DNA from: a virus
Lineage: Duplodnaviria > Caudoviricetes
Reading direction: 5' to 3' (one strand)
Virus record (IMG/VR): IMGVR_UViG_3300017700_000484
Location: 1-39,055 of that record
DNA length: 39,055 nt
The notes beneath the pieces were generated by a model. The model had not been told where the DNA came from and searched no databases. It was given only the letters and a program-made list of their open reading frames with translations. Each line of letters begins with the position of its first letter. Within the stretch, counting starts at the first letter, position 1. This document shows positions 328 to 36,238 of the stretch, in pieces. The position numbers and the translations under genes are program-made.

Positions 328-2185
328 TCGCGGCTGGAATCAGGTTTCCGGTCATGGCCTGTTGACCAGCGAGCGCCAGACCCGAGCCCACGCCGATGTT
401 GCCCGCAGCGTTGCCGCTTTCCGAATAGTTATAGAACCGACCGGCCTGCTGTTGCTGGCGCATGACGCGGGCGAGGGCGTTGAGGTCTGAGAACTGTTCG
501 GCACGTTCCGCTCCACCGAACAGGATGCGGCGCGCTTGTGGCGTCATCGTTTCCCATTCCGTAGCGAAACGGGCGACAGAGAAGTCGTCGCCACGCTGGC
601 CAAGATCGCGGATAACGCCCGATGCGATCTCGTCCCAGTCTTCGGCAGGGACCGATGAGCGAAGCTGGCGAAGCTGTGCCCAGTTGGAGCGACGGCCCGT
701 AGCCTTGGCTGCGTCTATCAGGCGCGCGTATGCGTCGGCAGGATTGTTCGCGTCGTAGAACCGCGAAAGGACATTGTCAGCACGGGAGCGGGCGGCGCTG
801 TAGTATGTGTCTGCGCGGGACAGGGCTTGTGCCGCCTCTGGGCCGCCAAGCTGTTCAGCGCCTGCCGCAACGTCGTCAGACAGCGCGCCATACAGGCGGC
901 GAAGTCCGGCCTCCGAGCGCGAGTTAAACACGGTGGGATCGTTGAGCATCCGGCCCACGATGGACCGAAGTTGGCGCGCCTCTCCGAACGTAACGCCCTG
1001 ATCGGCCTTTTGCAGAACATCCTGGAACTGGGTCAGGTCGGTTGCGTTGCGGGTGAACCAGTCACGCAGATCTGGCGTGGTGAAGACCGACAGGCTTTCG
1101 TCCACGGCCTGACGCGATGCAGTCAGAGGGATTGGTGTCGGGTTCGATTCAAGAGCGTTAATCGGCTCATACAGTGCCCCACCCTCACGGCGCAGCGTCT
1201 GGGCACCCTCGCGTGCAGACCGCTGCAACGTAGCGCCAGCCGAGGTGCGACCCTCTGCCGTTCCGTATGCGCCAGCGATGCGATCAATAGCCTCGCCAGT
1301 CTGCGTCTCGGCACGGCGAGCAGCGGCTGCAATCGGCTGACCCGTCAGGACGTTACCCGCCAGCGTTTGCGCCGTGCGCTGCGATACCGGTCCGCCAACG
1401 CCAGCCAGCGTCGGCTCAATGCCGACCTGATCGAAGTCCGCGACGCTTTGCGCCATGCGGCTGGTTGGTCGTGTGCCGGTGCTGGAGATGCCAAGAAGGC
1501 GACTGGCATACGGCGCGGCGGCTTGAGCGCCAGCACCAGTAGCGGCCCCCAGAACAGCGCCGGTTACCGCACCGGGGGCGCGCTCTTGGAAGGAGCCGTC
1601 ACCCGCGCCGAAGCCATAGGCAGCGCCGTAGCCTGCGCCTATTTGGGCGGCTCGCCCCACGCTCGCTGCACCGGTTGCGCCACGAACATAAGCAGACCCA
1701 GGCGCGGCCAGACCGGCAGCGAAACCAGAAACCCCGCCAGCATTGCGAGCCGCACCGTAGTTCTCACGGTCGTATTGATTCAAGTCTGTCTGTAGATCGC
1801 GAACCTCGCTGTATGGCGTGCCAGTTATCAAGCCCGCAACCCATGCGGCAGCTTCATCCAGCAAAGGTATTTGCTCGGTAGCCCCGGAGGCAAACGACTC
1901 GACCTGGCCCGACTTAAGCGCCCCAAGTTCAGCCGTGCGTGTCCTATCAGCTGAATAATCAACGGCAGGTGCTTCGGGCTCCGTGTATTTTACCCATTGG
2001 CCGTTTGAGTCTTGACGGAACCCCATGTTCAATAGCTGGGTCGGGTTCTCGTTAATGGGCGCACGATTAACGACGGGCAGTTGAGCGCCATCTTCAGGGC
2101 GCGTGTAGGTGTCCTGAGGCGATTGAGGCGGCGCGACTTGCTGCGTATGAGCGCGGGCCGCTGCGTAGATGTCTTGAACGGCCAT
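92..2185 (-). CDS. DNA ejection/internal virion protein (P22 gp16-like position)
   Basis: 697 aa, Ala/Gly-rich, with GAAYGFGAG-type hydrophobic glycine stretches; start MAVQDIY coupled by TAATG to the upstream gene; last of three ejection genes. Confidence 0.7.
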   Translation of the reverse strand: MAVQDIYAAARAHTQQVAPPQSPQDTYTRPEDGAQLPVVNRAPINENPTQLLNMGFRQDSNGQWVKYTEPEAPAVDYSADRTRTAELGALKSGQVESFASGATEQIPLLDEAAAWVAGLITGTPYSEVRDLQTDLNQYDRENYGAARNAGGVSGFAAGLAAPGSAYVRGATGAASVGRAAQIGAGYGAAYGFGAGDGSFQERAPGAVTGAVLGAATGAGAQAAAPYASRLLGISSTGTRPTSRMAQSVADFDQVGIEPTLAGVGGPVSQRTAQTLAGNVLTGQPIAAAARRAETQTGEAIDRIAGAYGTAEGRTSAGATLQRSAREGAQTLRREGGALYEPINALESNPTPIPLTASRQAVDESLSVFTTPDLRDWFTRNATDLTQFQDVLQKADQGVTFGEARQLRSIVGRMLNDPTVFNSRSEAGLRRLYGALSDDVAAGAEQLGGPEAAQALSRADTYYSAARSRADNVLSRFYDANNPADAYARLIDAAKATGRRSNWAQLRQLRSSVPAEDWDEIASGVIRDLGQRGDDFSVARFATEWETMTPQARRILFGGAERAEQFSDLNALARVMRQQQQAGRFYNYSESGNAAGNIGVGSGLALAGQQAMTGNLIPAATIVGAGVAGNGLSRILTSPGVARWLAGPVQRIVPDAENLARRNAAFAQWWDLNRDAVVRAAAQSDVVPMQAAAEEPQQ

Positions 2186-13482: not shown

Positions 13483-13514
13483 AAAACGCCCCCACTCGGT
13501 TAAGAGTGAGGGCG
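13483..13514 (-). terminator. Rho-independent terminator
   Basis: CGCCCTCACTC-TTAACC-GAGTGGGGGCG-TTTT on the minus strand. Confidence 0.7.
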
Positions 13515-13546
13515 AATGCGCGAGGCCGGAATCAATACCGGAAGAT

Positions 13547-13632
13547 GCAAAAAGACTGGACTCGAACCAGCGCGCTCCAGGTAGAGTGATAATCTATGCC
13601 TGGCGCTCTAAACCAACTGAGCTACCTTTTGC
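13547..13632 (-). tRNA. Atypical tRNA-like element with an elongated anticodon arm (apparent anticodon AUC)
   Basis: Acceptor (G)CAAAAGG/CTTTTTG(C); D-arm GCTC-AGTTGGTTTA-GAGC; T-arm GCTGG-TTCGAGT-CCAGT; anticodon arm CCAGG-CA-TAGA-TTATCAC-TCTA-CCTGG; no encoded CCA. Confidence 0.75.
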
Positions 13633-13683
13633 CTCAAGCTTTACACTCATAGCCGCGAACCAAGAGCCGCCGCTCGCCCAAAA

Positions 13684-13712
13684 ATCTTAAATCTTTGGCG
13701 CCAATCAGTCAA
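13684..13712 (-). promoter_or_regulatory. Sigma70 promoter of the tRNA-like RNA
   Basis: TTGACT-17 nt-TAAGAT on the minus strand. Confidence 0.7.
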
Positions 13713-13714
13713 CG

Positions 13715-13942
13715 CTAGTCAAACCATGTAGCTGCATCTCGCAGATTGATCGCAGCCTCTTCTCTGGCCTTGGCTCTGTTTCGGGCTGACTCGGCTTCAG
13801 CCTCAAGGCATCCGGCCTCTTCGTTAAGTCTGGCGGCCTCTCTTTCGTACCCCTCTGCCTTTTCAATCAAGACGCCCTTGGGGGTGTGTTTTTCTTTTTG
13901 TGGCGATTCTTCAAGCAGTACAACCGGCGCTTCCATACTCAT
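13715..13942 (-). CDS. Hypothetical coiled-coil protein
   Basis: AAGGAGAG SD; Glu/Ala heptads. Confidence 0.6.
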   Translation of the reverse strand: MSMEAPVVLLEESPQKEKHTPKGVLIEKAEGYEREAARLNEEAGCLEAEAESARNRAKAREEAAINLRDAATWFD

Positions 13943-34075: not shown

Positions 34076-34298
34076 CGACTTCACGTTGCTTCTCCTGTTG
34101 ATCCTGGCGAACGGCTTCTGTCTCCGTCGCCACCTTATCCAGCGCATCGACGGTTACGGTCGCCTGTCGCGCCTCCGCTACGGCCCGGTTCGCGCGGGCT
34201 TCCTGAAAGCGGTATGCGCCGTATAGGGCGAGGATCAGCGCGACAACGCCAATGCCGATCCAGACCTTGAGGGGGAATAGGCGGAGGATGGTGGTCAT
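33987..34298 (-). CDS. Inner-membrane spanin (Rz-like)
   Basis: N-terminal TM plus coiled coil, directly after the endolysin. Confidence 0.75.
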   Translation of the reverse strand: MTTILRLFPLKVWIGIGVVALILALYGAYRFQEARANRAVAEARQATVTVDALDKVATETEAVRQDQQEKQREVDEIPGSSDRLPDGYGDALERVRRGNSDSR

Positions 34299-34900
34299 GA
34301 CGCATACATCTCCGCTTCAGCAGCCCGACGCCGCACAAGGCCGTTCATGACCTTGCCGTCGTTCTTGTTCCACATGGCGAACGCGGCCTGTGCGCCTGCG
34401 TAGTCGCCAGCCTTGTGCTTGCGGGCCACGGTCGATCCTGTGAACGCCCCGACGCCGATGTTATAGGCCAGCGACACCATCGCGTCGAACTGGCCCTGTG
34501 TGACCGGAGCGCCGTTTAGGGCGTGTAGAACGCCGCCTTCAAACTTGGCCAAGTCCTGCTCAAACTTGTCGTTGGCGTATTGCTGCGTCCAGATGTCGGT
34601 TAGCTTGATGGGCTTGCCAAACAGGTCAGACGTTGACCCCCAACCAATCGTGATCGGCAGTCCGTCTTTTGATCCAGGGTCTTTGTAGGCATGGGCGCGA
34701 AATGACTCCATGCTGTGAATGAGGTCGATGGCCCGTTTTGAGGCCTTCATACCGGGCGGCATAGGCGGGATAACCAGCCCATACTTAGCCTCCCACGCGC
34801 GGAGGGTGTTTGCCCCAGCCCATCCATCCGGCGCGACGCCAAGGTGTTTCTGCACCCGCTTGACGAACGCTTCGTTGTCGGTGGTTTTCTTGCTGGACAC
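34295..34900 (-). CDS. Endolysin (GH24 lysozyme with N-terminal peptidoglycan-binding-like segment)
   Basis: VQKHLGVAPDGWAGANT; E..AYKD..TIGWG; QFDAMVSLAYNIG; GLVRRRAAE. Confidence 0.92.
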   Translation of the reverse strand: MSSKKTTDNEAFVKRVQKHLGVAPDGWAGANTLRAWEAKYGLVIPPMPPGMKASKRAIDLIHSMESFRAHAYKDPGSKDGLPITIGWGSTSDLFGKPIKLTDIWTQQYANDKFEQDLAKFEGGVLHALNGAPVTQGQFDAMVSLAYNIGVGAFTGSTVARKHKAGDYAGAQAAFAMWNKNDGKVMNGLVRRRAAEAEMYAS

Positions 34901-34921
34901 GCGCCCTCCGTAAAATCGTGC

Positions 34922-34951
34922 TTGACCTTTATAGCGTGTTTGCGGCAGTGT
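34922..34951 (+). promoter_or_regulatory. Putative ncRNA promoter overlapping a divergent endolysin -10 (GCTATAAA, minus strand)
   Basis: TTGACC-18 nt-CAGTGT. Confidence 0.4.
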
Positions 34952-34956
34952 GGTTA

Positions 34957-35107
34957 GGCGAGCGGGGCCGCATTAGCTTGCGGGCATCATCTAACTAAGA
35001 CAAGGCGATAGAAGGGTCTTAGCTGCGAATCTCCTAACACCCATTGGAGACCCCGAAAGGGATAGCAGAAATCGCTACGAGTAGGATTTGCACCCTACAC
35101 GCTCGCA
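34957..35107 (+). ncRNA. Structured ~150-nt non-coding RNA (multi-hairpin junction)
   Basis: Closing stem GCGAGCG/CGCTCGC encloses six hairpins including CCC-GAAA-GGG; followed by a terminator. Confidence 0.6.
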
Positions 35108-35112
35108 CACCG

Positions 35113-35149
35113 AACGCCCCGCTGGATTGAACCCCCGGCGGGGCGTTTT
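35113..35149 (+). terminator. Rho-independent terminator
   Basis: AACGCCCCGCTGG..CCGGCGGGGCG-TTTT. Confidence 0.75.
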
Positions 35150-35225
35150 GGTGTTTGACGCGGGGTGTGGTAGCGTTCGGATGCGGTGATATTGCCGCGC
35201 CTAGCCTCTGCGGAGGCCGAGGAGA

Positions 35226-35576
35226 ATGACTATGAAGCCCGGACTTAATGTCGAATATCGTGTGCGCGAAATCAAACGCTACACGGTCACCCGTCACGAA
35301 ACGCAAGTGTCTGACGACGGCGCGGAGGCGCGTGGATCAAACCGCCAAATCGGCTCTCATTATGACAACTTCGATACCGCCTATGCGGTTGGCTATGCTC
35401 TTTGCTCTAAGGAGCATGCCGATCTGGGATACCCGCCCGCCGATGAGCGGATTCAATATCCTATCAGCGTTCCGCCCGGAACTGTTTTGACTCCTGCGGA
35501 AGAATATCCAGAACTAAAGGGCGTCAAGTCTGTGATTGCCACGGTTGACGGCGAACTAGAGGCCGTCGAGGATTAA
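35226..35576 (+). CDS. Hypothetical moron-like protein inserted in the lysis region
   Basis: GAGGAG SD; opposite strand to flanking genes; TTGACG upstream at 35155. Confidence 0.65.
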   Translation: MTMKPGLNVEYRVREIKRYTVTRHETQVSDDGAEARGSNRQIGSHYDNFDTAYAVGYALCSKEHADLGYPPADERIQYPISVPPGTVLTPAEEYPELKGVKSVIATVDGELEAVED

Positions 35577-35584
35577 CGAACCAG

Positions 35585-35612
35585 CGCCCTCGGCCTTACC
35601 CAGCCGGGGGCG
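35585..35612. terminator. Hairpin between converging genes
   Basis: CGCCCTCGGC-CTTACCCA-GCCGGGGGCG. Confidence 0.4.
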
Positions 35613-35862
35613 TATTCGTTATGGCCGTCTTGACCATTTCCCACGCCTTGGCCGTGTAGATGCCTAGAACGATGCCGCCGATGGCACCCAAGGCTATCGC
35701 CCCGTCATTTCCGTTCTCGACCTTCAGGGCGATGATAACGGCTGCAATCGCGGCAGACAGGGACGTGACGTAGATGGCAAACGGACGCGCCAGGTCGCCC
35801 ACGATGCTGCGGAACAAATCCCAACCGTGCGGCGGATTGCTATCGGGAGGCGTATCACTCAT
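35596..35862 (-). CDS. Two-TM membrane protein (holin candidate)
   Basis: MSDTPP..; two hydrophobic helices; LARPF and GIYTAKAWE motifs. Confidence 0.55.
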   Translation of the reverse strand: MSDTPPDSNPPHGWDLFRSIVGDLARPFAIYVTSLSAAIAAVIIALKVENGNDGAIALGAIGGIVLGIYTAKAWEMVKTAITNTPPAG

Positions 35863-36238
35863 CGCCACCGATCCTGGCCACCCGTGCCCACATCGCGGGG
35901 CCTGTCTTGGCGCAGAAGTACGCCATGAGGCCCGCGCCGGATGCAATGGACGCCCAAGCCTCCCAAGGCGTGTGTGGGATCAGCAGAGACTGCGTCGTAA
36001 GCATCATACCGCCAACGCATAGCCCTAAAGCCCCTCGCTCAAACCTGCTAACCGGCCCTGCAATACCGGCGATCATGGCGGACATGAACAGGATCAGCGC
36101 GCCTCGAATAACGGCGGCGACGATGGCCAGCTCGCTCATGGTCGGGAACGGCCATGTCGCCCCAATGAATATAACCAGCGCAGCAACGCCGAACAGGGCC
36201 GCGTAGAACCATGCCTCCCGATGGATGTGACGCTTCAT
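35855..36238 (-). CDS. Four-TM membrane protein
   Basis: GGAGG SD, MKRHIHREAWF..; four hydrophobic segments. Confidence 0.6.
   Translation of the reverse strand: MKRHIHREAWFYAALFGVAALVIFIGATWPFPTMSELAIVAAVIRGALILFMSAMIAGIAGPVSRFERGALGLCVGGMMLTTQSLLIPHTPWEAWASIASGAGLMAYFCAKTGPAMWARVARIGGDE

What the first reader, a model, noticed from the sequence alone, without database searches (positions are those of the whole stretch)
34922..35149. Six-hairpin structured RNA divergent from the endolysin gene
Seen: a 7-bp closing stem (34958-34964/35100-35106) encloses CCGCA/TGCGG, CTAAGAC/GTCTTAG, TCTCC/GGAGA, CCC-GAAA-GGG, TAGC/GCTA and GTAGG/CCTAC hairpins. Loop GCGAT could pair with ATCGC, and CACCC occurs at two loops. 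A promoter-like sequence and a strong terminator bound it, and there is no credible ORF. I cannot assign it to a family I know. The plus strand is favoured by the GNRA loop and U-tract, though the minus strand shows a T-loop-like GGTGCAAATCC. Inference: a new phage sRNA (protein sponge, antitoxin-like or lysis-timing RNA); it is antisense to any read-through into the endolysin.
Basis: partly seen in the sequence, partly recalled or inferred. Interest (0 to 1): 0.7.

Follow-up and report, generated by a model that had tools for sequence, protein, structure and literature searches.

The report
Swappable tRNA-shaped phage small RNA
This is a predicted 150-base folded RNA gene inserted backwards among a phage's cell-lysis genes, in a slot whose middle is swapped between related phages; it is likely a divergent member of an uncatalogued family of tRNA-shaped phage RNAs that may act as decoys for the host's RNA-attacking defences.

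Summary
The structure is real: a 150-nt RNA body (34958-35107, +) with a 7-bp closing stem, six hairpins and a 14-bp terminator (z -3.4 to -3.65), no Rfam match. It lies in an optional insert between a holin-like gene and the endolysin of a complete 39-kb phage. In related contigs promoter, first stem strand and terminator persist while the interior is replaced by 51-166 other bases. One such contig ends in the hairpin that marks a family I assembled here: 16 phage/prophage RNAs with a tRNA-like 7-bp acceptor, D-like and T-like arms (13 of 17 pairs covary), no anticodon arm, variable cargo, 3 of 16 with a nested damaged tRNA. A second member lies in this window (13517-13679, -). The finding's RNA keeps the family's ends and arm geometry but not its loop sequences, and both covariance models miss it, so membership is likely, not shown. 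Best guess: a stable tRNA-shaped carrier displaying variable hairpins as decoys. Expression and function are untested.

The parts
34922..34951 (+). Promoter-like site: TTGACC (34922-34927), 18-nt spacer, weak -10 CAGTGT (34946-34951), 6 nt before the RNA's first G
   Evidence: Sequence; same 6-nt spacing before GCGAG in the second element's better promoter; 34880-34965 kept at about 99% in contigs of other runs; not found by the consensus scan; function inferred
34958..35107 (+). Predicted 150-nt RNA body (element A): 7-bp acceptor-like closing stem plus unpaired A
   Evidence: z -3.65; only hit in the window of a 7-bp / 5-bp+6-nt / 5-bp+8-nt descriptor
34968..34983 (+). D-like arm position: 5 bp, 6-nt loop (family geometry, loop sequence differs from family GATGGA)
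34984..35080 (+). Variable cargo: hairpins 34995-35022, 35030-35050, 35052-35061 (GAAA), 35063-35077 (weak); replaced in relatives
   Evidence: joints; near-identical copies of parts of it in two other runs (X11 34880-35013, 2 differences; X3 35064-35169, 1 difference)
35081..35098 (+). T-like arm position: 5 bp, 8-nt loop (loop lacks the family's T1 and A6)
   Evidence: family loops
35112..35149 (+). Intrinsic-terminator-like hairpin, 14 bp with G-U pairs, then TTTTG
   Evidence: stem kept and loop varied in contigs of other runs
35226..35576 (+). 116-aa ORF of unknown family, part of the same insert, SD GAGGAG at 35219-35224
   Evidence: 15 homologues besides itself at 47-77%; no PHROGs, Pfam or PADLOC family; no named look-alike
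35584..35613 (+). Second terminator-like hairpin closing the insert
   Evidence: kept in relatives
34295..34900 (-). Endolysin (phage lysozyme), divergent from the RNA
   Evidence: PF00959 E 2.8e-37, phrog_7
35596..35946 (-). Holin-like gene (by position and hydrophobic segments; no family hit)
   Evidence: endolysin directly adjacent in 10 of 31 related loci
13517..13679 (-). Element B: second member in this phage, with a nested tRNA-like module (13547-13631, 17-nt anticodon loop, no CCA), promoter TTGACT-17-TAAGAT and terminator 13514-13483
   Evidence: absent between portal and scaffold genes in 3 of 3 closest relatives

Best explanation
The element is a predicted stand-alone small RNA gene inserted backwards between a holin-like gene and the endolysin, in a slot whose interior differs between related phages, and it is likely a divergent member of a family of tRNA-shaped phage RNAs that probably serve as stable carriers displaying variable hairpins as decoys for host RNA-binding or tRNA-attacking defence proteins. 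Shown: structure, optional insert, swapped interiors, the covarying family shell, nested damaged tRNAs in 3 of 16 members. Inferred: transcription from the weak promoter to the terminator (about 190 nt), trimming or protection through the acceptor/T-arm/D-arm shell as in tRNA (RNase P favours a 7-bp acceptor stem, PMC4201824 passage), no decoding role (no anticodon arm, no encoded CCA), and a decoy or sponge function under arms-race selection.
For: Fold far above shuffles. Insert optional: holin-like gene directly adjacent to endolysin in 10 of 31 related loci. Flanks conserved, interior replaced: 4 contigs from 4 of the 8 runs laid bridge the slot with 53 or more letters on each side and 132, 98, 51 and 75 other letters instead of 165, 171, 143 and 135; 3 more joints have sides of 23-30 letters. 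One X2 contig carries the family's T-like hairpin directly before this slot's CTCGC (loose end at 35102). Family shell: 13 of 17 pairs change on both sides, 97.3% of 220 cells paired, 0 of 500 shuffles reach it, slid controls 31-46% (9-member MAFFT alignment gave 13 of 17 and 97.4%). One member's T-like loop is TTTCGAGT, a canonical T-loop plus one base. Element A shares the opening GCGAGCGG and closing CTCGC with B, D, G299 and L248 and is the only place in the window with the family's arm geometry. Nested tRNA-like modules with enlarged, shortened or collapsed anticodon arms in 3 of 16 members. This phage carries two different elements, L078 two more. tRNA-cleaving defences that phages counter with RNA exist (PMC11464382 passages).
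Against: Both covariance models miss element A: nothing at its place at E up to 5 or 10, and only fragments of 4 bits or less in a 1-kb search. Its D-like and T-like loops have lost the conserved bases that would make a tRNA elbow. The descriptor was tuned with A in view and gave 0-2 hits in each of 6 shuffled windows. The link between slot and family rests on one contig with a 25-letter side; two X5 contigs end in other sequences before the terminator. No covariation exists for A's own interior. No expression data. The one counter-defence case I read works by a cleavage-resistant working tRNA, not by a decoy (PMC11464382). No defence gene is tied to the family in the neighbourhoods examined.
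Confidence: 0.4

Rival explanations
1. C4/CI-like antisense RNA: an RNase P-processed, multi-stem phage RNA whose variable loops base-pair with target mRNAs to give immunity or gene control, with loop changes setting specificity.
For: C4 is a three-stem phage RNA processed by RNase P, with specificity in a variable loop (PMC5320573 passages); a conserved shell with variable loops fits; A has many single-stranded loops.
Against: RF01695 gives 0 matches at E up to 10 in 3 of 3 records holding members; longest shared words with the genome are 10-12 nt; two-loop complementary sites number 53 against 25-54 in 10 shuffles; whole nested tRNA modules are not what an antisense RNA needs. Targets in the host or other phages were not tested.
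Confidence: 0.2
2. Cis-acting or partner RNA for the neighbouring gene: an antitoxin/leader for the 116-aa ORF behind the terminator (type III toxin-antitoxin layout, recalled) or a regulator of endolysin timing.
For: Order promoter-RNA-terminator-ORF-terminator; ORF homologues follow the same terminator in X4, X6, X5 and X13 contigs; several members lie at lysis cassettes.
Against: No tandem repeats typical of type III antitoxins (sequence); ORF has no toxin or defence family; other sequences follow the terminator in other contigs; family members have unrelated neighbours; the ORF stays while the RNA interior is replaced.
Confidence: 0.13
3. A separate small RNA that replaced the tRNA-like shell in this slot and merely inherited its first eight and last five bases, promoter and terminator; function as a protein sponge of its own.
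For: Models R1 and R2 miss it; nhmmer of its interior finds nothing at E up to 5 in 242 loci; loops differ at the conserved positions; other slot occupants also lack the canonical T-like hairpin.
Against: It keeps 7-bp, 5-bp+6-nt and 5-bp+8-nt elements in the family's order and an unpaired A after the stem.
Confidence: 0.15
4. Largely neutral relic: debris of tRNA-cluster recombination carried by a mobile cassette whose selected parts are the promoter and terminators.
For: Interiors are unrelated between strains and hold damaged tRNA pieces; an earlier scan note read a sister cassette this way (e1-5769137, unchecked AI note).
Against: Compensatory change in all three shell helices across phages of Alpha- and Betaproteobacteria; A folds at z -3.65 and parts of it recur almost unchanged in two other runs.
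Confidence: 0.08
5. The working strand is the minus strand: a YrlA-like, permuted tRNA mimic inside the late lysis transcript, with the GGTGCAAATCC T-loop.
For: Minus strand folds at z -2.47; T-arm directly after the closing stem is the YrlA order (PMC4201824 passages); late genes run on this strand.
Against: Terminator G-U pairs and U-tract, GAAA loop and family orientation favour +; no GNCGAA motif at the stem; no Rfam YrlA match; interior not conserved among slot relatives.
Confidence: 0.04

Closest known systems
YrlA / bacterial Y RNAs (PMC4201824, passages read)
   Same: Non-coding RNA with tRNA-like D and T arms, found in bacteria and phages, modular
   Different: YrlA is permuted (T, acceptor stem-loop, D) and lies beside Ro60; this family has normal tRNA order, an open acceptor end, an 8-nt T-like loop and cargo in place of the anticodon arm; no Rfam match
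C4 antisense RNA of phages P1/P7, RF01695 (PMC5320573, PMC2864571, passages read)
   Same: Small multi-stem phage RNA, conserved scaffold with variable loop, processed from a longer transcript
   Different: No match to RF01695; 100-167 nt with wholly exchanged interiors and nested tRNA modules; no target sites found
GOLLD RNA (10.1101/2024.12.08.627333, passages read)
   Same: Phage RNA of unknown function near tRNA genes, sometimes with tRNAs in its linker
   Different: GOLLD is often over 800 nt and forms nanocages; these are 100-167 nt with a tRNA-shaped shell; no Rfam hit on any member
Allo-tRNAs and irregular tRNA polycistrons (PMC5389517, passages read)
   Same: Irregular tRNA-like RNAs in bacteria and phages, some inactive in translation and linked to mobile elements or toxin-antitoxin loci
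   Different: Those have 8/4 or 9/3 branches and an anticodon; this shell is 7/5 with no anticodon arm
tmRNA (features partly recalled; PMC4201824 passage)
   Same: tRNA-like ends enclosing a non-tRNA interior
   Different: No G3-U70, no encoded CCA, no tag reading frame, under half the size; ARAGORN finds none
Phage T4 stable RNAs C and D (recalled only; search found 0 papers)
   Same: As recalled: 120-140-nt tRNA-like phage RNAs of unknown function among tRNA genes
   Different: Not compared here; no sequence test made

Membership tests
tRNA-shell phage RNA family defined here (models R1, R2) | 7-bp acceptor-like stem closing the RNA, followed by an unpaired purine | tested here: met
   34958-34964/35100-35106 + A, p 0.95-1.0; register differs: A extends the stem inward using the two linker bases
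tRNA-shell phage RNA family defined here (models R1, R2) | D-like arm of 5 bp + 6 nt and T-like arm of 5 bp + 8 nt at the two ends of the interior | tested here: met
   (descriptor allowed a 3-nt linker and a 1-nt bulge, chosen with A in view)
tRNA-shell phage RNA family defined here (models R1, R2) | Conserved loop bases (D-like GAWGGA; T-like T1...A6) | tested here: not met
   A has TTAGCT and ATTTGCAC; B's D-like loop and G299's T-like loop also deviate
tRNA-shell phage RNA family defined here (models R1, R2) | Detected by the family covariance model | tested here: not met
tRNA-shell phage RNA family defined here (models R1, R2) | Occupies a slot that holds a canonical member in relatives | tested here: inconclusive
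   One X2 contig shows the canonical 3' hairpin in this slot (30-letter loose end); full interiors of the other contigs could not be read
Canonical tRNA | Anticodon arm, 7-nt T-loop, match to RF00005 or ARAGORN | tested here: not met
C4 antisense RNA (RF01695) | Match to the covariance model | tested here: not met
C4 antisense RNA (RF01695) | Two loops complementary to adjacent target sites in the phage | tested here: not met
   53 two-loop sites vs 25-54 in 10 shuffles; short seeds cannot be excluded
C4 antisense RNA (RF01695) | RNase P processing | not testable with these tools
   needs RNA ends or in vitro cleavage
YrlA Y RNA | Permuted T-AS-D order with GNCGAA motif | tested here: not met
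   + strand has D before T; no Rfam match; motif from PMC4201824 not at the stem
YrlA Y RNA | Ro60/TROVE gene adjacent | tested here: not met
   10 neighbouring ORFs scanned, no TROVE hit; the whole phage was not scanned for TROVE
tmRNA | G3-U70, CCA end, tag reading frame | tested here: not met
   sequence; (features recalled)
Type III toxin-antitoxin antitoxin | Tandem pseudoknot repeats upstream of a terminator and an RNase toxin gene (recalled) | tested here: not met
   no repeats seen in the sequence (no repeat tool run); ORF116 has no family

The most novel reading that the evidence does not exclude
Proteobacterial phages have evolved a natural 'tRNA-scaffold display' system: a conserved anticodon-less tRNA shell, placed as a mobile moron, into which interchangeable RNA modules (hairpin arrays, whole damaged tRNAs) are swapped to titrate host tRNA-targeting nucleases or other RNA-binding defence proteins; element A is one loaded variant whose shell loops have themselves drifted.
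Probability: 0.27. Interest if true: 0.88.

Novelty: new variant of a known kind. Interest (0 to 1): 0.63.

Why it matters
tRNA mimicry is known (YrlA, tmRNA), but a small phage RNA family with a covarying tRNA shell and freely exchanged cargo, including nested damaged tRNAs, is not in Rfam 15 and is unannotated in 5 named phage records and one plasmid record where it occurs. If it is a decoy platform it would be an RNA-only counter-defence class. It is directly testable because Caulobacter phage DMCA (host C. vibrioides CB15) and Komagataeibacter phages phiKX1/2 are isolated phages carrying canonical members. It also warns that some single odd phage tRNA annotations are the cargo of a larger RNA.

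Tried and rejected
Rfam: no family for A or for any of the 16 shells (terminator-only weak hits such as ctRNA_pGA1 E 2.7). blastn of A against 50,697 phage records: 9 terminator-only hits. Pattern scans with A's flanks: 0, 1 chance hit, 0 in genome contigs, only the window's own contig in metagenome contigs, 1 chance hit in coding DNA; 3'-end pattern in viral contigs 0. DNA search of 276 genomes of the Brevundimonas-centred genus: 7 weak hits over the terminator part of the query, not read further. 3'-end pattern: 7 of 401 family genomes and 21 of 276 genus genomes with one mismatch; the 7 and 5 of the 21 were read and looked coding, without a shell. L235-L237, L243 and L050 rejected as lacking the shell. 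ORF116: no loci in viral contigs. Relaxed ARAGORN output was noise and was not used. No RNA holder listed among 24 runs, which says nothing on expression; only 8 of the 24 runs were laid. One search contained one member on the wrong strand and was replaced; alignments A4 and A5 misaligned the acceptor and were not used. Literature searches found no description of the family; motif search of 6 supplementary files of PMC10690425 found 0 occurrences, but files 1, 2 and 4 were not searched and may hold it among that paper's candidates.

Full report
Setting. The window is a complete 39,055-base virus record with direct terminal repeats. Terminase, portal, capsid and tail genes and the lysis genes run on the minus strand. 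The best endolysin relative among genome contigs is in Brevundimonas viscosa at 60%, so a Caulobacteraceae host is an inference. The finding lies in a 700-base plus-strand insert between a holin-like gene (35596-35946) and the endolysin (34295-34900). In 10 of 31 loci found with the holin-like protein the endolysin follows directly, so the insert is optional.

The 228-nt stretch folds at z -3.42 (0 of 200 shuffles), the 150-nt body alone at z -3.65. Five hairpins have pair probabilities of 0.65-1.0; TAGC/GCTA is about 0.48 and competes with another helix. The consensus scan found no promoter and did not list the terminator, whose loop is one base over the limit. Rfam gives only a weak terminator hit.

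The interior is swapped in relatives. Of 24 runs listed (none on record as RNA) I laid 8. Promoter side (to about 34965) and terminator side (from 35102-35137) are kept nearly unchanged, while the interior is replaced: 4 contigs with 53 or more letters on each side have 132, 98, 51 and 75 other letters where the window has 165, 171, 143 and 135; a fifth has 166 for 172 with a 30-letter side, and two have unknown interiors with sides of 23-25. Two contigs hold parts of A's own interior with 1-2 differences (X11, X3). One X2 contig shows a 5-bp hairpin with loop TATCAAGT directly before the slot's CTCGC; two X5 contigs end differently.

That hairpin marks a family. It recurs in this phage at 13517-13679 (minus; element B), which also opens with GCGAGCGG, has a good promoter at the same spacing, a terminator, and encloses the window's only Rfam tRNA hit. 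B and its 75-aa neighbour ORF are absent at that place in the 3 closest relatives. Descriptor, pattern, blastn and model searches gave 16 distinct full members: B; G282; G290 (3 of 47 records matched, one being the window); Komagataeibacter phage phiKX1 (phiKX2 identical), Caulobacter phage DMCA, Pseudanabaena phage Pan3; G712 (1 of 351 genomes); a Roseomonas plasmid record and Alcaligenes phage QDWS595; two in L078, one in L083; G299; L247 (2 of 8 genomes matched, one being G712), L248 and L249 (2 of 151). They are 100-167 nt: 7-bp acceptor-like stem, two bases, a D-like arm (5 bp, usually 6-nt loop GAWGGA), variable interior, T-like arm (5 bp, 8-nt loop with T1 and A6; 15 of 16), then mostly an unpaired A, no encoded CCA, no anticodon arm. 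In 13 members 13 of 17 pairs change on both sides and 97.3% of cells pair, against 75% in shuffles (0 of 500) and 31-46% in slid controls (that alignment is fitted to the model, but the unfitted 9-member alignment gave 13 of 17 and 97.4%). None of the 16 shells matches Rfam; 3 of 16 contain a nested tRNA-like module with an enlarged, shortened or collapsed anticodon arm. phiKX1, G712 and L248 follow tRNA genes; others lie by lysis, terminase, portal or integrase genes.

Is A a member? For: same opening eight and closing five bases as several members, same slot as the X2 contig, and the family's arm geometry, unique in the window (0-2 hits in each of 6 shuffled windows; descriptor tuned on A). 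Against: its two outer loops lack the conserved bases, both covariance models miss it, and its interior has no match in 242 loci. I put membership at about 0.6: a divergent occupant of a family slot.

Mechanism. Shown: structure, optional insert, interchangeable interior, covarying shell. Inferred: a plus-strand transcript from about 34958 to the terminator, stabilised and perhaps trimmed like a tRNA, unable to decode. A conserved shell with fast-changing cargo, several copies per phage, moron positions and nested tRNAs with damaged anticodon arms suit a decoy or sponge for host RNA-binding or tRNA-cleaving defence proteins (0.4). No partner is identified, A lacks the elbow bases, and the published case I read (T5 tRNA-Lys against PARIS, PMC11464382) works by resistance, not decoy. 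An antisense role (0.2) found no support: no RF01695 match and no target above chance in this genome. A role tied to ORF116 or to lysis (0.13) is weakened by varied neighbours and by ORF116 having no known family.

Literature seen. Passages only: PMC2864571, PMC5320573, PMC5389517, PMC4201824, 10.1101/2024.12.08.627333 (124), PMC11464382. PMC10690425: listing and a search of 6 supplementary files, three not searched. Ten searches found no description of the family; the library lacks most subscription papers. tmRNA identity bases, type III antitoxin layout and T4 RNAs C/D are recalled. Two earlier notes of this scan appear to concern the same family; they are unchecked AI notes and not independent support.

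Verdict. Real, well-folded and uncatalogued; most interesting as an entry point to a modular tRNA-shell RNA family of proteobacterial phages. Novelty: new variant of a known kind (tRNA mimics). Interest 0.63; 0.88 if the cargo-display decoy reading (0.27) is right.

Noticed in passing
window 13483-13942 (-): Second moron between portal and scaffold genes: 75-aa ORF, promoter, element B with a nested tRNA-like module whose 17-nt anticodon loop can form an extra 4-bp stem with a 7-nt loop, terminator. Absent in L162-L164.
   Followed up: yes
window 34928-34956 (-): Possible minus-strand promoter for the endolysin overlapping the RNA's promoter (TAACCA-17-TATAAA); 34954 reads C in all 4 runs, which would improve its -35. 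Divergent overlapping promoters, inferred from sequence only.
   Followed up: no
window 34930-34960 and 35145-35176: The sequences just upstream of the RNA and just downstream of its terminator resemble each other (GTGTTTG...GTGTGG...TAG); could be related promoters or a recombination aid for cassette exchange.
   Followed up: partly
L194, about 1760-1830 (-), upstream of the G290 member: A further mini tRNA-like element ending in CCA with a GGTGCAACTCC T-loop and more hairpins before the shell; not in Rfam scan range.
   Followed up: no
L078 4671-5001: Two divergent family members back to back just after the spanin-like genes, sharing one promoter region.
   Followed up: partly
L229 265-380 and L231 2290-2390: Additional structured non-coding leaders before the phiKX1 and DMCA members; the DMCA one follows a gene annotated as transposase.
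   Followed up: no
L247 161-1403 (-): Two ORFs of 169 and 232 aa without Pfam hits directly downstream of a member in a bacterial genome; possible accessory or defence island.
   Followed up: partly
L190 5700-6180 (-): An ORF that looks like an HNH/AP2 homing endonuclease follows the G282 member between the terminase genes (read by eye, not scanned).
   Followed up: no
L187 2850-2922: Canonical tRNA-Asn(GTT) in the closest relative G280, not inside a shell.
   Followed up: yes
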